Source: Ostreococcus lucimarinus (Eukaryota). Taken from it: a DNA stretch of 64,000 bases. Every line of letters starts with the position of its first letter. Positions within the stretch are counted from its first letter, which is position 1. Below are positions 2,336 through 53,400 of the stretch, piece after piece. The notes below the pieces were generated by a model. That model did not search any database and was not told where the DNA came from. It saw nothing but the letters and a program-made list of their open reading frames with translations. A program made the position numbers and the translations under genes. The stretch is from NCBI GenBank assembly GCA_000092065.1, contig CP000584.1; one strand, written 5' to 3'.

Positions 2336-3253
2336 CTAATACTGCGCGATACCGACGGCGATGAAATCGGCACACGCGTCTTCTAAGTCGTCTAAGACGG
2401 CGCGCGCGTCGTCGCGCGCGCCGAAATAGCCGCGGAGGTGCGCGGCGAACTCTAAAGCGACGGATTCGCGCGTCTTCGCCGCTTCTTCGCGACGCTTCGC
2501 GGGCGTCGACGGTGCCGCGGGCGTCGTCGAACCCTCGCCCGTCGATGGCGACGCACTCGGTTGTGATTCTAGTTTCATCGCCTTGACGACCGCGGATAAT
2601 TCCTCGCCCCCCCGCGGCGGCGGCTTGGCGACGAAGTTGTGCAATCGCCGCGCGCACATCAATACGCACTCGTTTTCGTACGCCTCGACGAGTGCGCGCG
2701 GGTCCGCGATCGTGCCCACGGCCGCACATCCAGTGCAATCCTCTACTAGCGCTAACAGTGCCGTGGCGTCGATGCGCGTCGCGTCTTGTGCGATTAACTT
2801 ATCGAAATCGATCGACGCTCGCAGCGCCTCGTTCCCGGCGTCCTCGAGCGCGCGCCACTCCGTCACAAATTTCCGACTCAACTGCGCCTCTTCCGCCGTC
2901 AAGTGCGCGCTGAGCGCGCGCATATCTCTCAACAACCCCACTCTCAGCGCTTCGCACCCCTTGACGCATCGCAACACCGCCTCTTTCGCGTCCTCCGCGC
3001 CGTTTCGCTTCGCCGACCGCGCCGCGGCCAGCGCCTTCTCGAGCTGTAATCTCAGCGCCGCGCACTCGCGTTGAAACCTCGCCTGCGTCGACGCCAACCG
3101 CTCCACGGCGTCGCTGCGATCATCGAGCCACGTCTCGACGATCGCGCTCGTCTTATCCGCCACCGCGATCGCCCGCGCGACGAATTCCATTTGCAACGAC
3201 CCCGCGTGTCGTCGCATCGCTCGCGCGCATTCGCGCGCCGCGCGCTCCGTCAT
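2336..3253 (-). CDS. hypothetical helical/coiled-coil protein
   Basis: Continuous ORF with high GC3. The first ATG compatible with the neighbouring + strand ankyrin gene is at 3253. The upstream Arg/Pro/Thr-rich extension of the ORF (to 3739) is probably non-coding. No recognisable domain. Confidence 0.4.
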   Translation of the reverse strand: MTERAARECARAMRRHAGSLQMEFVARAIAVADKTSAIVETWLDDRSDAVERLASTQARFQRECAALRLQLEKALAAARSAKRNGAEDAKEAVLRCVKGCEALRVGLLRDMRALSAHLTAEEAQLSRKFVTEWRALEDAGNEALRASIDFDKLIAQDATRIDATALLALVEDCTGCAAVGTIADPRALVEAYENECVLMCARRLHNFVAKPPPRGGEELSAVVKAMKLESQPSASPSTGEGSTTPAAPSTPAKRREEAAKTRESVALEFAAHLRGYFGARDDARAVLDDLEDACADFIAVGIAQY

Positions 3254-26805: not shown

Positions 26806-29189
26806 CTAGTGCATGCGGGTGACGCGACGACCCTCGGCGCGTTCGGCGACGTCGCCGCGTTGCGTCATCACGAGCAAGGCGCGGGTGACGGCCCATTCGT
26901 TGACGCCGATGCGGGACAGATCGTCGATGAGGTGACGCTTGGACATGGTGGCGCCGATAGCGAGCTTTTGACGGATCTGCGTTTCGACGACTTGGAGCTC
27001 TTCGCGCTGTTCGGCGCTGAGGACGACCATATCGGCGACGCCCGAACGCGCGGCGTCGATGGTGGACACTTCGAACAAGCGCAACGCCTCTTGCACGTGC
27101 TCTTCGGTGACGGTGGATTGAAGGCACATCTTAGCCAACGATTCAGAGATTCGCACGATGGCTTCGAGTTGACGGACGGTGATCGGGACCGCGGCGTGGC
27201 CACCCGTGCGCTTGCGCTCGCGCATTTCCTCGCGATACTTGACGTACGAATCCTCTAACATGCGCATCGCCCGCTCACCCACGCGCGGCTTGCACATCGC
27301 TCGAGCGTACTCGATGTAGCGTTTCAAGAACTGACGTTCCTTTTCTTGCTGCGGATCTGCCGCGAGCGCGAGCTCATCGCCACCGCCGGCGTGAATATTC
27401 AACACGTGATCCGCGATTTGCATGTCGCGCTCGTACACTCGTTCGTCTCTGACGATGAAAATCATGTCGAAACGGGATAAAATAGTCGTTTGCAAATCGA
27501 TGTTCTCTTGTGCCGTTTTCAAATCGTCGTACCGCCCACTTGGAGGGTTCGCCGCGGCGAGCACGGCGGTTCGACTGTTGAGCATAGTCGTGATGCCCGC
27601 CTTGGCGATGGAAATCGTTTGCTGCTCCATGGCTTCGTGGATAGCGACACGATCTTCGTCGCGCATCTTATCAAACTCATCAATGCACACGCACCCGCCG
27701 TCTGCGAGTACCATGGCACCCCCCTCGAGATAGAACTCACCATTGCTGTCTCGAATCACCGACGCCGTGAGACCGGCGGCGGACGAACCTTTACCCGACG
27801 TGTACACGCACACTGGCGCCGTTCGTTCGACAAATTTCAAGAACTGCGACTTGGCAGTGGAAGGATCACCGAGCAAAAGCACATTAACATCGCCTCTTCG
27901 CGCTGTGCCATCCGGGTGCTCCTTGCGCGTGCCCGAGAAGAGCAAGCACGTCACCGCCGCTTTGATGTCGTCGCTCCCAAAAATCGCCGGCGCCACGCGA
28001 CTGCGAAGATCTTTCACAACGTCCTTAAACGGGCGATGGGCAAAGGTTTTGAACTCAGTATGCTCGGCATCAGTGAAATGTGCGTCGCCTCTAGCACCTT
28101 CCGTCTCTTCATCGATGCCTACGACTCGCAAATAGGCGTGCTGCACGGCGACTTTCCCTCCGCCGCGGTCGCGCTTGCTACTTCCACCTGCGTTCGTCGT
28201 CTCGTATACGCCCATGAGCTTCACGCGCGTGCCTGGAACGACCGATAAAACCATTGTACGTTCGACTAATACGGTCATGTTCCGCGGCATCTCCCCCGCC
28301 GGCACACACTCTGGGTTCTCTTGCAATTTCATATTCTGTTGGTCGATGAACGAACTCTTCTCCGGAACGATGCGATACGGATCCGTCCCGCACGGATTCG
28401 CCTCCTGCCCAACCTGTGTATCCCTACCAACCTGCGCTGAACAAAACCGAGGAACGTTCGCCCCGCTGTACCCTGCACCAAGATGAACCGAGATCGTGCT
28501 CTTGCACTTCTGACACTCGAGCGCCATATGCTTTGCCTTGGTTCTCGCCTTTGACGTCGCGATGACGATACCGGGTACGTACACCAACGTCCCCACATCG
28601 CTCGAATTCAAAGTCCTCAACGGGCGCGGAATCTCTTTCGACGTAAGTTTCACTTGCACGCTCGCCCGTCCCGGCGCCCGATCTCTCGACGCGCGATCCT
28701 CCTCCTCTAAGTACGCGTCCCCATCCGCCGCCGCCAACGCGTCGCTCGGTCGCAAGCTCTCCAACACGTCCTGCACCGCCTCCTCCAATATCGGCAAGTA
28801 ATCGTTCGGTTCCATTCGCATCGCTCGCGCTAATTCCGCATCGTGCGCGATCAAATCATCAAAGCATATCTTCAAATCCTTCGGCGTCGTCGCGCGATCG
28901 AGTTCATCTCTGTATTTGAGTCGCCCGTCCGGCGCGCTCGCGTCTGGTGCGCTTCGAAAGTTTCGCAAAAAGTCCACAAACTTCGCCCGCGCTTGGCTCG
29001 GCGTCACACCTCGCGCGCGCCGCGCTTCGAGATCGGCGTCGACGACCGGTTCGGCATCGGCGTCGTCGTAGACGTAATCTTCACCTTCGGCTGCGCGCGA
29101 AAATTTTGAAATCGTCAGTCGTCGAGTCGTCGCGCGCGTCGGTAGAGCGCGGTTTCGGGGCGATCGAGCGCGCGCGACGCACCGTCCAT
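26806..29189 (-). CDS. MCM5: DNA replication licensing factor MCM5; two exons 29183..29189 (ATGGACG) and 26806..29090
   Basis: MCM box (Walker A GDPSTAKSQ, IDEFDKM, arginine finger SRFD). The zinc finger/loop DPYRIVPEKSSFIDQQNMKLQENPECVPAGEMPRNM matches MCM5. The track start at 29007 is GTG. Upstream in frame, AAEGEDYVYDDADAEPVV aligns to the MCM5 N-terminus and runs into CGCGCGCAG| with GACTGACGAT 23 nt upstream. ATG GAC G|GTGCGT lies at 29189-29177. Confidence 0.9.
29091..29182 (-). other. intron (92 nt, phase 1) following a 7-nt first exon
   Basis: GTGCGT donor, GACTGACGAT branch motif, TTTTCGCGCGCAG acceptor. Shares tgactgacgat/aaaatt blocks with the SMC2 and CDCA7-like introns. Confidence 0.6.
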
Positions 29190-29380
29190 GCTCGCGCGCG
29201 CGTGCGTGCGCGTGCGCGGCGAGGCGATCGACGCGCGAGGCGCGATGTGGTGCGAAGTGTCTATTTTGAATCAGCGCTTTTGACAGCTGGGAGAGAGATT
29301 CAAAGAGAGCGCGCGCCCGGACGGGCTAGAAATTAAGATATTTTATTCGGTGCTGCGAGACTGATCTAACGGTCGCAGTG

Positions 29381-31918
29381 CTAGTTTTGATTGATGCTCG
29401 CGCCACCGAGGGGCGAGAGCGGTGGACGCGCGGATTTGGCGCCGTCGACGCTCGGTCGACGACTTCGGAGCGCTTCGTCGCGGTTGAAACTAAAGGCGCT
29501 CGGCGTCACGGGCTCGGCGAGTAAAACGCGCGCGGACTCGCGCGCGGGAGTTTGTCCAGTCGGTACGTCCTCTCGAACCGCGGTTGAGAGCTCGGAGCTG
29601 AATTGCTCGCGGATGGACGTCAGGTCGCGAACGTGCTTGGACATGAAGTCGGCGACGCCGCGTTCAGACGTCGCGGCGACGGTGTTCGCCAAGTCTGAGA
29701 AAGCCGCGCGATCGCTCGCGAGGGACTGGTTCAACGAATCCACAGTTTCATCGCAACCGCGTCGAGAAGCGACGACTGCTGCCACTGCGTGCTCAGCGGT
29801 CGCTTCGGCCCCAGTGCGCAGCTCGTTTGCGGCTTCCATCAACATGTCTGCCTGCTTCAACATGCTCGCGCGCGCGTACTCGCTCGCCTTGCGCGCAGAC
29901 TGCTCGACGGAGCGTTGCATGTTCGCCACAGATTCCTTCAGTGCGTTCACTTCGTTTTCTTTGCGAACCATAAAATCATCTAAAACCGTCTTCATGTGTG
30001 ATCGCGACTCGCGTTCGACTTCCTGAATTCCCGCCAAGTTTCTCTCGAGCGCCTCCAACCTATCGCACATGGACGTACTCAACTCGCGAATCGCGTCCGC
30101 GTTCGAGTGCATCACACTTTCCTTGCGATTAATCTTCTCAAACAATGCCGTGGCTTCGTCTTTCGCCGCGAGTAAATCCTTCGCCATGGCGCTCGTCGCC
30201 GTGGACAAGTCGTCGTGAGTTTTTTCAAACGCGTCGAGCAAGTACTCCTTCTCGCGCACGTTCTTTTTCGCCCCACTCAACTCCACCGACGTGGTGCGCA
30301 AGTTGTCTTTAGTCTCCCCGAGCTCGACTTCAGTCTCCGCGTGTTGTTCTTTAAGCTGTAAGAAGTTCTTCTTCGTCTTGTCAAACATACGCGTCATCTT
30401 GTCGTGCTCAGCTTTCATCGACGCCAACTCGCGTTCGAGCTCCTCTGCGCGACGCCTCGTCGTCGTATGTTCGCTCTGCTCGGCGTCGTAGTTTGCCTTT
30501 GACATATAGACCCCGTTTTTCTCTCGCGTCGCCAACAAGTCGGCCTGCAAATGCTCAATGCAGCGTTGCATCTCGTTCAAAAAGTCACTCTTCGACTTCT
30601 TGCCATTCACTACGGGAGAGTTTTTAATGTTCTTCGCCCGATGCGCATACTCGAGCGTACTCAACGTTTCCTCCACCGAGTGCGAAGCCGGGGACACGGT
30701 GGCGATGATGCACGTGCGCGATTTTCCGCCCAACGCGTCACGCAGTAATCTCGTGAGCTTACTGTCCCGATACGGTATGTGCACCGACTTGTCGACCAGC
30801 GCCGTGATGACACGTCCGAGCGCGACGAGCGACGTGTTAATCGCCCCAGCCTCCTTCGCACGCTTGTCCTTGGCACCAGATCGCGAAATGTTTTCGCTTC
30901 CGGCCAAATCTACTAGATTCAGCTTGCCAGTACGCACGAACTCTTCGCCATCGGGCGACACATCGGTCCAGTGAACTGTGACGCTGAATACGCTGTGCGA
31001 CCGACTCGAGTGCGCGTTTATATCCGTCGCCTCGGTTTTTCGAAGCGCGTTCCCACGATTCAGCACCGCAAACGCCTCCTCCGTGGAACCGACGTAGACT
31101 TCTTCTAGACCTTTCACGACGACACCATTCTTACCATCCTCCATCAACGCGTGCTCGGTCGCATTCGTCCCGTCCGTCGACGCGCCGAGCAAGTCGGTGA
31201 TTTTCTCGTTGTACAGCTCGAGGTACGTCACCTTGACGCTGTGTTCCAATTCCTTACTCTTGAGATGTTCGAATATGTGCGACATCGCCCGCGGAATCAC
31301 CCCCGCTTCGCTGCTCAAGACATCGCACTCCGCATCGTGCGCCCCGCTCATCGTGTGCGTCTTCCCCGTCCCCGTCTGCCCGTACGCGAACACGGTGCAG
31401 TTCATCCCCTCGAGCACGTCCTTCACCATCGGTCTCACCGCGGAATCATACACCCGTTCCTGCGTCGACTGCGTCCCAAAAACGTCATCAAACGCAAATT
31501 CCTTACTCTCTGACGTCTCTCGCTTCCCTCCGTTCGTCGTCGACGTCCCCGCGCCGCCCCGCGCCACCGCCATCGTGCGCGCGTGCTCGTCCACCGTAAT
31601 CACTTCCGGCACTTTCTCCGCGCGTTCGTTCGCGTTCAGCGGCCTGCGCGCGTCGTTTATCGCGTCGTCAGTCTCATCATCGCTCGTCTCGATCGATCGC
31701 GATCGCGCGCGCGTCCTCCGCGCCTCCTTCGCTCGCGTTCGCGCGTCGCGCGTCGCCGTCGCTCAACGACTGCATTTGAAATTCGCGTCGACATCTTCCT
31801 CGCGCGCGTCGCATCGCGTTCGTCACCGCGCGCACCTGCATCGCAGAACGACGCTGACGCGCACGGTCGAGCCCGGTCGCCGCGCGCGATCGCCCGCGTC
31901 GGGCCGTCGCGACGCCAT
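29381..31918 (-). CDS. kinesin-5 (BimC/Eg5-like) motor protein; two exons 31836..31918 and 29381..31643
   Basis: Motor motifs GQTGTGKTHTM, NLVDLAGSENISRSGA, SLVALGRVITAL, HIPYRDSKLTRLL. Long coiled-coil tail. The track start at 31612 is GTG. Exon 1 (ATG at 31918) encodes MASRRPDAGDRARRPGSTVRVSVVLRC + AG. Joining it to G|CCGCTGAAC recreates the conserved beta1/P-loop-proximal motif VRVSVVLRCRRPLNANER. Donor GTGCGC, branch GACTGACGAC, acceptor CGCGCGCAG. Confidence 0.85.
31644..31835 (-). other. intron (192 nt, phase 2) in kinesin-5
   Basis: See above. Removing it restores the canonical kinesin N-terminal motif. Confidence 0.65.
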
Positions 31919-44983: not shown

Positions 44984-45320
44984 ATGCTTCGAGAGATCGC
45001 TAAGCGAGTGATTCCGCGAAAGCAGTGGGCGGCCACATACGTCGATACCATGCCCGTGCGTGCGCGGTGACCGGTGACGCGCGCGCGCGACGTTTTAATT
45101 CGCTCGGGACACGGCTCGGGTGAGCTTCGTTTTATCGACAGAAAAGACTGACGACGACGCGCTTCGTGCGCTGAACCGCGCGCAGAGCATGCGACACGCG
45201 AGAGGCGCCGCGCGATGGGGCGGAGTGGCGGTGTTTGGGTTGTTTTGGTTGATCGGGGACGAGTCGTTCGCGTGGGCGAAGAGCGTCGTCGTCGGCGGAG
45301 CCTCGGAGGAGGAGGAATAG
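44984..45320 (+). CDS. candidate unannotated 68-aa single-TM protein with acidic tail; exons 44984..45055 and 45186..45320
   Basis: ATG at 44984 (MLREIAKRVIPRKQWAATYVDTMP). A GTGCGT donor sits at 45056. GACTGACGAC lies 33 nt before a CGCGCGCAG acceptor at 45185. Exon 2 reads SMRHARGAARWGGVAVFGLFWLIGDESFAWAKSVVVGGASEEEE in phase 0. Confidence 0.35.
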
Positions 45321-50455: not shown

Positions 50456-53400
50456 ATGTACATCGAGGAAGTATGCATCGATGGCTTCAAGTCGTACGCC
50501 AAACGCACCGTCGTTCCGGGATTTGATCCGTTATTCAACGCGATCACCGGGTTGAACGGCTCGGGCAAGTCGAACATCTTGGATTCGATTTGTTTCGTGC
50601 TCGGGATTTCGAATCTCACGCACGTACGTCCGCGACGACGCGTCGGTGCTCGCGCACGTTGGATGGAGTTTCGTGCGCTCGGCGGCCGCGATGGATGACG
50701 ACGCGCGCGACGCGTGGGGGGGGAGATGATGACGACGCGCGCGGGGGGAACGAGCGCGCGCGAGGCGCGGTCGACGCGCGAGGGGATCGATCGCTGACGC
50801 GCGGCTCGATGCGGTAGCGATGAGAGCAGACGCGCGTAAAATTGATTGACTGACGATGTGCGCGCGTTCGGTCGAACGCAGGTGCGCGCGGCGAGCTTGC
50901 AAGAGCTCGTGTATAAGCAAGGCCAAGCGGGCGTCACCAAGGCGTCGGTGAGCGTGACGTTTAACAACGAGGATCGGACGCGGTCACCGGTCGGATACGA
51001 GCATTGCGATCGCATCACGGTGACGAGACAGATCGTGATTGGTGGGAAGAATAAGTACATGATCAATGGCGCGACGGCGCAGCCGACGCGGGTGCAGAAT
51101 TTGTTTCACTCGGTGCAGTTAAACGTGAACAATCCGCACTTTTTAATCATGCAAGGACGAATCACAAAGGTGTTGAACATGAAACCGCCGGAGATTTTGG
51201 GGATGCTCGAAGAGGCGGCGGGAACGCGGATGTACGAAAACAAAAAGGAAGGCGCGCTGAAGACGCTGGATAAGAAGCAGACCAAGGTTGATGAGATTGA
51301 CAGGTTGCTCGAGGAGGAAATCTTGCCGACGATTGAAAAGCTACGCAAAGAACGTGGCGACTACATGAAGTGGGCGGCGGCGAACGATAATCTCGAGCGC
51401 TTGCGCCGATTCTGCATCGCGTACGATTTCGTGATGGCGCAAGAAGCGGTCGAGAAGGCAAACGCGGGAACATCGAGCATCGTCGAAAAGATTGAAGAGC
51501 ACAAGAGCGCCATCGACGACGCCAATCGCGAGCAAACGGAGCTCGAGCTCCACGCGCAACGTTTGCAAACCGAAAAGGAAGAGCGCATGGGTTCAGAGAT
51601 GAAAGACCTGGTCGTTCGTACCGACACGATGTCCAAGGAGTTGGTGAAGGAAACCACCGCCTTGACGAACAAGCAAAACGAAGTGAAGAGCGAGCAAAAA
51701 GCCAAGGACAAGTTGTTGAAGGATGCTTCGGAAATGGAAGCCGCCGAGTCCAAGCGCGCCGAAAAAGTTGCTGCGCTCGAAGCCGAAGCCGCCGCCGAGC
51801 AAGCGTCGCTCGATGAGAAAGTGGCCGCCGCAGACATGGCTGAGCGCACGCTCCAAGGCGTGCAATCTGGCAAGGGAACGGGCGCAGACAAATCGTTGCA
51901 AGCGCAACTCGCCGACGCCGTCGCCGCGCAATCCTCCTGCGATGCTGAAGTGAAGTCTGCGGCACTCAAAATCAAGCACGTCGAGAAAGAGCTCGCGGTC
52001 GCGCAAAAGTCACTGAGTACGAAGCAAAAGGAAGGCGACAAGCTCACGAAGGAACTTCAATCCGCCGAGTCCGCGGTGGAGACGGCGCGCGCCAATCTCG
52101 CCAACTTTGGTGGATGCACGAGTGACAAGGCGGCCGAGCTCGAAGCGGCGTGCGACAAGGCAAACTTGGAAGTTCAAGAATTACAGCAAGAAGTTGATGT
52201 ATTGAACTCTAAGCTTGGTGACTGCGACTTTCAATTCCGCGATCCCGAGGCGAAGTTTGACCGCAAACGCGTTAAAGGCGTCGTCGCTAAGCTCATGCAA
52301 GTGAAGGACCCTGCCTCGGTCACCGCGCTCGAAGTCGTCGCCGGAGGTAAGCTGCACCAAGTTGTCGTTGATACAGACGTCACCGGTAAAGCACTTTTGG
52401 CTAAGGGTCAACTCAAGAAGCGTGTGACGATAATTCCGTTGAACAAAATCGACAGCCGAACGGCTACGGATCGTCAAATTGCCGCGGCGTCGAGCGTAAG
52501 CAAGGGCGAAGCCTCTCTCGCTCTCAGCCTCGTGACGTATGACGACGACGTGCAAAACGTGATGAAGTATGTTTTTGGTAAGGCTTTCGTCTGCAAAGAT
52601 CAGACCACGGCAAAGGCTGTCGCGTATGACAGAGATGTCATGTTGAACTGCGTCACCGTCGAGGGCGACATGTTCAACCCCAGCGGTGTCATCAGTGGAG
52701 GCTCTCGTAACACCGGCAGCGCGGTGCTGACTAAGCTTCACGCGTTGTACAAGGCTGAAGATGCATTGGCCAAAGCTAAGACTCGCGCCGAGTCCGCGTT
52801 GGAAACCGCCAAGGTGGCAGCCAAGGAGGCGAAAGAGGCGCAAAAGTTGGAAGACGAGTTGGATCGTCACGAACACGCGCTCGGTTTGTTGAAGGAGAAA
52901 GTCAGCGGTTCAGAAGTGCATCAACTCGCCGAAAAAGTTCGCAAATTCGAACAAGATCTAGCTGACGCCAAAAACACGACGGAGGAGGCCAAGGCGAAGA
53001 AGGTTGAGGCTGCACAGACAGCTGCGGCGCTTGAGAAAGAAATCAAGAGCTTTGAAAAGGAGCGCGATTCACGTTTGAAAGAAGCTGAAAAGGCTTTGAA
53101 AGAGGCGAGAAACGCAGTCACCAAAGCTCGAGCGCAAATTAAAGAGAAAGAAGAGTTTGTCACTAGCGCGCGGATCGAGAAAGAAGCTGCGGTTTCGGAA
53201 CGCGCGGCGCTCGATGAGCAAATCAACGAACGCGCCGCCGCCGTCGCGGAGTTGCGAGCCGAAGTCGAGACTATGCAAGCGGCCGTGTCGGAGAAGCAAC
53301 GTGAATACGACGTCGTCGCAGCTGAGCTTGAAGACCGGCGCGCGCGTGTCGCTGCGTGCGATGTCGAAATCTCTAAGCTGCTTAAGCGCAAGGAGAAACT

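What the first reader, a model, noticed from the sequence alone, without database searches (positions are those of the whole stretch)
29091..29189. MCM5 begins with a 7-nt micro-exon (ATGGACG) followed by a 92-nt intron
The continuous ORF starts at a GTG (29007). In-frame sequence upstream (AAEGEDYVYDDADAEPVV) aligns with the conserved MCM5 N-terminus but has no ATG before it. On the minus strand the sequence reads gcgagcATGGACG|GTGCGT...GACTGACGATTTCAAAATTTTCGCGCGCAG|CCGAAGGTGAAGAT. Splicing gives MDAEGEDYVYDDADAEP... in frame (phase 1, G+CC = Ala). Micro-exons of this kind are usually missed by automated annotation.
Basis: seen in the sequence. Interest (0 to 1): 0.6.

Follow-up and report, generated by a model that had tools for sequence, protein, structure and literature searches.

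The report
MCM5 start codon split by intron
The replication-helicase gene MCM5 of the tiny green alga Ostreococcus lucimarinus really does begin with seven coding bases (ATGGACG) followed by a standard 92-base intron; this is correct but ordinary, and the same structure is already annotated in the sister species O. tauri.

Summary
On the minus strand, ATGGACG (29189..29183) is followed by a GT...AG intron of 92 nt (29182..29091). Splicing joins it in phase 1 to the 733-codon MCM5 ORF, giving a 763-aa protein that starts MDAEGEDYVYDD.

- This is the only ATG between the upstream kinesin gene and exon 2.
- The intron carries the published O. lucimarinus signals: GTGCGT donor, GACTGACG branch site and CAG acceptor. 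Its branch-to-acceptor spacing matches that of a transcript-verified intron in the neighbouring gene.
- The same architecture recurs in O. tauri (annotated model XP_022838680.1), in four other Ostreococcus lineages and in Bathycoccus. Intron lengths and sequences differ, but the join is always in frame.
- The spliced N-terminus aligns with the canonical MCM5 start MSGWDEG.

The window is O. lucimarinus CCE9901.

Two caveats apply. No spliced MCM5 transcript was recovered, and the species' own RefSeq model could not be retrieved. The term "micro-exon" is also loose: only the coding part of exon 1 is 7 nt, and the exon also carries the 5' UTR.

Verdict: a real, ordinary start-proximal spliceosomal intron. 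Interest is low.

The parts
29183..29189 (-). Coding part of MCM5 exon 1: ATG GAC G (Met, Asp, first base of codon 3). Kozak-like context: A at -3 (29192), G at +4 (29186).
   Evidence: Only ATG in 29450..29090 on this strand. The identical ATGGACG occurs in O. tauri, three metagenome Ostreococcus clades and Bathycoccus.
29091..29182 (-). Phase-1 GT-AG spliceosomal intron, 92 nt, 65% G+C.
   Evidence: Unspliced read-through from the ATG stops after 24 codons. No Rfam match and no unusual fold. Not a repeated element within the window.
29176..29182 (-). 5' splice site GTGCGTC. The species consensus is GTGCGTG, so 6 of 7 bases match.
   Evidence: Consensus from Irimia & Roy 2008 (PMC2483917). 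GACGGT.CG is the main run of invariant columns (8 of 21) in the six-species alignment A1.
29113..29120 (-). Branch-site motif GACTGACG, an exact match to the species' extended consensus. The branch A at 29115 lies 24 nt from the last intron base.
   Evidence: The same motif and the same 24-nt spacing occur in the transcript-verified kinesin intron 31835..31644.
29091..29093 (-). 3' splice site CAG, the first AG downstream of the branch site.
26806..29090 (-). MCM5 exon 2: the rest of the CDS including the stop codon (26806..26808). It starts CC GAA GGT... Together with exon 1 it encodes 763 aa.
   Evidence: 100% identical to P0001 over the 733-aa ORF.
29005..29007 (-). GTG at which the mechanical ORF call starts. 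In the spliced protein it is internal, Val31, not a start codon.
   Evidence: The upstream residues 3-30 are conserved as protein in the orthologues.
29190..29326 (-). The interval that must hold the MCM5 core promoter and 5' UTR, i.e. the non-coding part of exon 1. Its upstream limit is set by the 3' end of the kinesin RNA contig at 29326. It contains the conserved CAGCTG (29289..29284) and TTCAAAA (29270..29264).
   Evidence: The transcription start site was not determined.

Best explanation
This is the 5' end of the nuclear MCM5 gene of Ostreococcus lucimarinus CCE9901. Transcription starts somewhere in the roughly 137 nt between the end of the upstream kinesin mRNA and the ATG (inferred). 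Exon 1 consists of the 5' UTR plus seven coding bases, ATG GAC G. A canonical U2-type intron of 92 nt (GTGCGT...GACTGACG-N16-CAG) is removed (inferred from signals and comparative data, not observed). The G is then joined to CC to form codon 3 (Ala), and translation of the spliced mRNA from the only available AUG gives a 763-aa MCM5 beginning MDAEGEDYVYDD. Unspliced RNA would yield only a 24-residue peptide. The intron position and phase are ancestral to Ostreococcus plus Bathycoccus. The 7-mer is conserved probably because it serves at once as start codon with its +4 G, as the first two residues, and as the exonic half of the 5' splice site (this last point is inference).
For: The sequence and frame are exact. 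29189 is the only ATG in the 29450..29090 interval. The next in-frame ATG (28821) would delete residues 1-92, which includes more than half of Pfam MCM_N (residues 38-127).

Splice signals match the EST-derived O. lucimarinus non-chromosome-2 consensus, 5'ss GTGCGTG and branch site GACTGACG. Of the confirmed introns in that set, 87% contain ACTGAC and 66.5% contain GACTGACG (PMC2483917).

The neighbouring kinesin intron is proven spliced by a Logan RNA contig that is 100% identical to the window. It has the same GACTGACG motif, the same 24-nt spacing and the same CGCGCAG acceptor. The composite motif is about 13-fold enriched over simulation.

The O. tauri orthologue CEF97422.1 / XP_022838680.1 on CAID01000004.2, in the same kinesin-MCM5-NAD-binding-kinase synteny, is annotated as ATGGACG|GTACGC...(125 nt)...CACAG|ATGACGG, giving MDDDGEQYVYDE. 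In that annotation 89% of introns were validated by RNA-seq and the models were manually curated (PMC4378021).

Four other Ostreococcus lineages and Bathycoccus show ATGGACG (one shows ATGGATGACG) followed by GTRCG. Their intron lengths are 101, 126, 111, 121 and about 332 nt. Every unspliced read-through hits a stop, and every spliced product is in frame with MCM5. In alignment A1, GACGGT.CG is the main block of invariant columns amid 52% mean column identity. The spliced N-termini align with the canonical MCM5 start MSGWDEG.V.Y.
Against: There is no direct transcript evidence for this junction. Two junction-pattern scans of JGI metagenome contigs returned nothing. The exact 763-aa product, and the spliced models of five relatives, are absent from the 15-billion-protein collection. 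The one short Logan contig spanning the region (L016) is colinear with the genome, that is, unspliced or genomic. The MCM frame happens to stay open through the intron in this species, so read-through is not excluded by a stop in that frame. The O. lucimarinus RefSeq model, expected to be XP_001417420.1, could not be retrieved for comparison.
Confidence: 0.93

Rival explanations
1. There is no intron. MCM5 is translated from the continuous ORF, either from a non-AUG codon (for example GTG 29007 or an upstream near-cognate codon) or from the first in-frame AUG at 28821.
For: The MCM frame is open from about 29325 through the putative intron in this species. Prokaryote-style gene callers produce such models: 733, 723, 671 and 669 aa. 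No spliced transcript was recovered.
Against: Nuclear eukaryotic genes rarely start at GTG. The AUG at 28821 removes 92 residues, including the conserved FLRNFR helix region and more than half of Pfam MCM_N (residues 38-127). The supposed coding extension through the intron is not conserved as protein in any relative. In the orthologues, unspliced read-through from the ATG ends in a stop codon in every lineage, while the ATGGACG|GT island is invariant. The curated O. tauri model uses the intron.
Confidence: 0.03
2. The same first exon and donor are used, but the acceptor is the next AG, 6 nt downstream (CCGAAG|GTGAAG, exon 2 starting at 29084). This gives MDGEDYVYDD, also in frame, as the major or an alternative isoform.
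For: The sequence allows it: ATGGACG + GTGAAGAT stays in frame (direct reading).
Against: CAG at 29093..29091 is the first AG after the branch site. It sits at exactly the 24-nt spacing seen in the verified kinesin intron. In every orthologue the residues at this position (A/D/E/G, then E/D/G, then G) are retained after the first acceptor.
Confidence: 0.03
3. The true start lies in a further upstream exon, and ATGGACG is internal or untranslated.
For: None positive. The transcription start site is unmapped.
Against: The kinesin stop codon is at 29381..29383 and its RNA contig runs to 29326. There is no other ATG on this strand up to 29450. The spliced N-terminus already has the full canonical length relative to MSGWDEG.
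Confidence: 0.01

Closest known systems
Ostreococcus tauri MCM5 gene model (CEF97422.1 / XP_022838680.1, CAID01000004.2; also OUS49245.1)
   Same: Orthologue in the same synteny. It has the identical 7-nt coding first exon ATGGACG, a phase-1 intron at the same codon, a CTGAC branch site, a CAG acceptor and an N-terminus MD-x-x-G-E-x-YVYD.
   Different: Its intron is 125 nt rather than 92 and is unalignable apart from the splice signals. The donor is GTACGC rather than GTGCGT, and codon 3 is Asp rather than Ala. The proteins are about 85% identical overall.
Canonical non-chromosome-2 introns of O. lucimarinus (Irimia & Roy 2008, PMC2483917)
   Same: GTGCGT(G) 5' splice site, extended GACTGACG branch site and a short, fixed branch-to-AG distance. 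The length of 92 nt is within the normal range. It lies on the chromosome homologous to O. tauri chromosome 4, not chromosome 2.
   Different: It sits immediately after codon 2, so only 7 coding nt precede it. Position +7 of the donor is C, not G.
Start-codon-proximal introns of intron-poor genomes, for example many yeast ribosomal-protein genes, and the 5'-biased intron distribution (own knowledge, not tested here)
   Same: An intron within the first few codons of a gene in a genome that has lost most of its introns. The first exon is the 5' UTR plus a handful of coding bases.
   Different: Different lineage and different splice consensus. No evidence here for a regulatory role.
Classical internal micro-exons (about 30 nt or less, flanked by two introns)
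   Same: A very short coding segment that ORF-based or similarity-based gene finders miss.
   Different: This is a first exon whose real length includes the 5' UTR, at most about 137+7 nt. There is no upstream intron, so the exon-definition problem of true micro-exons does not arise.
Micromonas introner elements (PMC4540971)
   Same: Introns in a Mamiellales genome.
   Different: The intron is not repeated in the window. It is old and positionally conserved across genera, and Micromonas commoda MCM5 lacks an intron at this site.

Membership tests
U2-type GT-AG spliceosomal intron (O. lucimarinus non-chromosome-2 class) | GT at the 5' end and AG at the 3' end | tested here: met
   GT at 29182-29181 and AG at 29092-29091.
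U2-type GT-AG spliceosomal intron (O. lucimarinus non-chromosome-2 class) | 5' splice site close to GTGCGTG | tested here: met
   GTGCGTC, 6 of 7 bases. Consensus from PMC2483917.
U2-type GT-AG spliceosomal intron (O. lucimarinus non-chromosome-2 class) | Branch site ACTGAC, extended form GACTGACG, at a short fixed distance from the AG | tested here: met
   GACTGACG at 29120..29113, with the branch A 24 nt from the intron end. This is identical to the verified kinesin intron.
U2-type GT-AG spliceosomal intron (O. lucimarinus non-chromosome-2 class) | Removal restores a continuous, homologous reading frame | tested here: met
   The spliced product MDAEGEDYVYDD... is in frame with MCM5 and aligns to other MCM5 N-termini.
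U2-type GT-AG spliceosomal intron (O. lucimarinus non-chromosome-2 class) | Position and phase conserved in orthologues while length and sequence drift | tested here: met
   Seven further lineages or variants, with introns of 92 to about 332 nt, all phase 1.
U2-type GT-AG spliceosomal intron (O. lucimarinus non-chromosome-2 class) | Spliced junction observed in RNA | tested here: inconclusive
   Junction scans gave 0 hits. Spliced proteins are absent from the collection. The only short contig found is unspliced or genomic. An RNA-seq run that would decide it exists (SRR17229566) but cannot be searched by DNA here.
MCM5 (DNA replication licensing factor, MCM2-7 family) | MCM_N, OB, AAA+ P-loop and lid domains plus the MCM5-specific C-terminal domain | tested here: met
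   PF14551, PF17207, PF00493, PF17855 and PF21933 all score above their curated cut-offs. The best named hits are MCM5.
Classical internal micro-exon | The whole exon is about 30 nt or less and is flanked by introns on both sides | tested here: not met
   It is the first exon, and no intron or coding sequence lies upstream. Up to about 137 nt of 5' UTR and promoter lie between the kinesin RNA end at 29326 and the ATG. The exact exon length is unknown because the transcription start is unmapped.
Chromosome-2-type short Ostreococcus introns | 40-65 nt long, with weak splice and branch signals, in the low-GC half of chromosome 2 | tested here: not met
   The intron is 92 nt, 65% G+C and has strong consensus signals. 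The orthologous O. tauri locus is on chromosome 4.
Introner elements | Many near-identical intron copies in the genome | tested here: not met
   There are no other full-length copies in the 64-kb window; the only matches are short CG-rich stretches. A genome-wide test was not possible.

The most novel reading that the evidence does not exclude
The start-adjacent intron may be more than a leftover. On this reading it has been kept since the Ostreococcus/Bathycoccus ancestor because MCM5 expression depends on it. Either splicing next to the cap promotes export and translation, or regulated intron retention (unspliced RNA encodes only a 24-residue peptide) gates MCM5 synthesis to the S-phase or diel window. 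The invariant ATGGACG|GT would then be a multi-purpose control element.
Probability: 0.08. Interest if true: 0.4.

Novelty: new member of a known kind. Interest (0 to 1): 0.15.

Why it matters
The main value is for annotation quality. ORF-based and prokaryote-style gene calls on Ostreococcus DNA, which dominate metagenome protein catalogues, truncate MCM5 by 30 to 94 residues. The exact full-length product is absent from a 15-billion-sequence protein collection. A simple rule recovers such starts in Bathycoccaceae: a lone ATG followed within a few bases by GTGCGT, then GACTGACG, then CAG about 24 nt later. The strict conservation of the 7-mer across two genera is a tidy example of overlapping constraints from the start context, the N-terminal residues and the exonic part of the splice site. 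It changes no concept.

Tried and rejected
- **Junction scans.** Two scans of JGI metagenome contigs, one exact 25-mer and one degenerate pattern that also covers O. tauri, gave 0 hits. They are uninformative because this collection yielded no spliced Ostreococcus cDNA.
- **N-terminal protein search.** A search with the first 100 residues found only 15 candidates and one unrelated fragment.
- **Exact look-ups of spliced models.** The models for the window, a population variant, four clades and Bathycoccus are all absent from the collection.
- **Retrieving the O. lucimarinus RefSeq MCM5 model.** This was attempted through its neighbours. The 210-aa NAD-binding model is not in the gene index. 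The kinesin model led only to an RNA contig, which nevertheless proved useful.
- **Contigs carrying the 671-aa call.** All are genomic or unspliced.
- **Selaginella MCM5 locus.** This was meant to test whether the intron position is older than Bathycoccaceae, but the locus is not on record.
- **E2F-like TTTCGCGC inside the intron (29103..29096).** It is not conserved in the orthologous introns, so it was dropped as an explanation.
- **Structured RNA or snoRNA in the intron.** There is no Rfam hit, and the fold z-score of 0.64 is unremarkable.
- **Introner or repeat origin.** No other copies occur in the window.
- **Other ATG-adjacent introns in the window.** The candidates at 45056 and 50673 turned out to have longer first exons, so MCM5 is the only such case in the window.

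Full report
**1. The observation**

On the minus strand the window reads gcgagcATGGACG | GTGCGTCGCG...CGACGACTGACGATTTCAAAATTTTCGCGCGCAG | CCGAAGGTGAAGATTAC. ATGGACG occupies 29189..29183, the GT...AG interval occupies 29182..29091 (92 nt), and exon 2 starts at 29090.

The mechanical ORF list gives a 733-codon ORF from GTG 29007 to the stop at 26806. In that frame the upstream sequence is ...RLTISKFSRAAEGEDYVYDDADAEPVV, with no ATG back to an in-frame stop near 29326. Joining the two pieces gives MDAEGEDYVYDDADAEPVVDADLEARRARGVTPSQ..., a 763-aa protein.

**2. What organism and what gene**

Two intronless ORFs of the window are letter-for-letter identical to RefSeq proteins of Ostreococcus lucimarinus CCE9901: XP_001417135.1 and XP_001417127.1. 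RefSeq models XP_001417419.1 (NAD-binding protein) and XP_001417421.1 (kinesin) flank this gene.

The protein carries Pfam MCM_N (residues 38-127), MCM_OB, MCM, MCM_lid and the MCM5-specific C-terminal domain. Its named relatives are MCM5.

**3. Why the ATG and intron model is the right one**

(a) 29189 is the only ATG on this strand anywhere between 29450 and exon 2. The upstream kinesin gene ends at 29381, and an RNA contig of it runs to 29326. That leaves at most about 137 nt for the promoter and 5' UTR, and no room for another coding exon.

(b) The next in-frame ATG (28821) would delete 92 residues, including more than half of MCM_N.

(c) The splice signals are those of this species. Irimia & Roy (PMC2483917) derived them from 319 EST-confirmed introns outside chromosome 2. 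They report the atypical 5' consensus GTGCGTG, with ACTGAC in 87% and GACTGACG in 66.5% of those introns. This intron has GTGCGTC and an exact GACTGACG.

(d) There is an internal control. The Logan contig SRR17229566_83868 (L013) is 100% identical to the window but lacks 31835..31644, which proves that the kinesin's first intron is spliced. That intron reads CAG|GTGCGC...GAGACTGACG...CGCGCAG, with its branch A 24 nt from the intron end. This is exactly the spacing in the MCM5 intron.

(e) The composite signal is rare by chance: 6 occurrences in the window against 0.46 expected.

**4. Comparative evidence**

The O. tauri orthologue lies in the same kinesin-MCM5-NAD-binding-kinase order. It is annotated in GenBank/RefSeq (CEF97422.1 / XP_022838680.1) with a gene span 125 nt longer than its CDS. 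The DNA shows ATGGACG|GTACGC...GAGACTGAC...CACAG|ATGACGG, giving MDDDGEQYVYDE. That annotation was RNA-seq-informed, with 89% of introns validated, and it was manually curated (PMC4378021).

Four further Ostreococcus lineages from metagenomes (L004, L005, L007, L009) and a Bathycoccus contig (L012) show the same design:

| Locus | Coding exon 1 | Intron length (nt) |
|---|---|---|
| Window (O. lucimarinus) | ATGGACG | 92 |
| L001 (O. tauri) | ATGGACG | 125 |
| L004 | ATGGACG | 101 |
| L005 | ATGGACG | 126 |
| L007 | ATGGACG | 111 |
| L009 | ATGGATGACG | 121 |
| L012 (Bathycoccus) | ATGGACG | about 332 (contains an N gap) |

In each of these, exon 1 is followed by GTRCG, a CTGAC/CTGAT motif and a CAG acceptor. 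In every case the unspliced read-through from the ATG meets a stop, and the spliced product is in frame with MCM5.

In a six-species DNA alignment, GACGGT.CG is the main run of invariant columns (8 of the 21), amid 52% mean column identity. All the start codons have a purine at -3 and G at +4.

The spliced N-termini (M-D-[ADEG]-[EDG]-G...) align with the canonical MSGWDEG.V.Y of Micromonas, other prasinophytes and land plants. Micromonas commoda encodes MAGWDEGNVYY without an intron at this site. The intron is therefore at least as old as the Ostreococcus/Bathycoccus ancestor. Whether it was gained there or lost in Micromonas was not resolved (one search failed).

**5. Mechanism**

- Shown: the sequence anatomy, the frame, the signal match, the positional conservation and the orthologue's annotation.
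- Inferred: that the pre-mRNA is spliced here by the major spliceosome, and that the ribosome starts at this AUG.
- Consequence of not splicing: unspliced RNA would give only MDGASRALDRPETALYRRARRLDD*.
- Inferred: the perfect conservation of the 7-mer is most simply explained by overlapping constraints, namely the start codon with its +4 G, the residues Met-Asp, and the exonic half of the 5' splice site.
- The intron holds no recognisable RNA family and no unusual structure. It is not a repeated element in the window.

**6. What is missing**

I could not find a spliced MCM5 transcript. Two junction scans and several exact-protein look-ups were negative, and the short contigs found are genomic or unspliced.

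I also could not retrieve the species' own RefSeq model, presumably XP_001417420.1. The exact 763-aa product has no entry in the protein collection although the neighbours' RefSeq proteins do. This suggests, but does not prove, that the 2007 model differs from the one proposed here.

**7. Comparison and verdict**

This is a standard start-proximal spliceosomal intron of the well-described O. lucimarinus type. It is identical in design to the annotated O. tauri orthologue.

"Micro-exon" is a loose label. Only the coding part of exon 1 is 7 nt, and the exon includes the 5' UTR and has no upstream intron.

It is useful for annotation, since prokaryote-style calls give 733-, 723-, 671- and 669-aa truncations, but it is biologically ordinary. 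Interest is 0.15. For novelty I file it as a new member of a known kind, and it would be "already known" if XP_001417420.1 turns out to start MDAEGE.

Noticed in passing
window 29289..29264 (minus strand); L001 about 2913..2945; L004, L005, L007 at equivalent positions: A motif CAGCTG(T) followed by TTCAAA(A) lies about 75-105 nt upstream of the MCM5 ATG. It recurs in O. tauri (ACAGCTGAGGATTTTCAAAAAAGCG) and in three other Ostreococcus clades, in otherwise unalignable intergenic DNA. It is a candidate promoter or cell-cycle element.
   Followed up: partly
window 29096..29103 (minus strand, inside the intron): TTTCGCGC, a perfect match to the E2F-site consensus TTTSSCGC (own knowledge), sits between the branch site and the acceptor. 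It is not conserved in the orthologous introns, so it is probably a by-product of the CG-rich sequence.
   Followed up: partly
window 31644..31835 (minus strand); L013: The first intron of the kinesin-5-like gene (192 nt) is verified by a spliced Logan RNA contig (SRR17229566_83868) that is 100% identical to the window. The contig ends at 29326, only 137 nt from the MCM5 ATG. It encodes the 781-aa RefSeq model XP_001417421.1.
   Followed up: yes
window 50624..50881 (+) and 45056..45185 (+): There are two more canonical GACTGACG-type introns. One follows the first about 56 codons of an SMC2-like gene ([14 protein letters not shown]...). The other lies in a small ORF of about 70 aa starting at 44984 (MLREIAKRVIPRK...) that has a hydrophobic stretch.
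   Followed up: partly
P0131 (ENA metagenome variant of this locus): A natural variant has ACG changed to ATG inside the intron, in the MCM frame. A prokaryote-style caller therefore produced a 777-aa 'MRATTRRLTISKFSRAAEGEDY...' protein that reads through the intron. This illustrates how such artefacts enter protein catalogues.
   Followed up: no
L012 485..816 (Bathycoccus contig): The orthologous Bathycoccus intron is about 3.5 times longer, 37% G+C and CT-rich. It contains a thrice-repeated CTCTCTCTTTTAATAAACAA unit and an assembly gap, yet keeps ATGGACG|GTACGC and a CACAG acceptor.
   Followed up: no
L005 1321..1344: One Ostreococcus clade carries an (ATGG)n microsatellite about 80-100 nt upstream of the MCM5 start. 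If it is transcribed, it would place several upstream ATGs in the 5' UTR.
   Followed up: no
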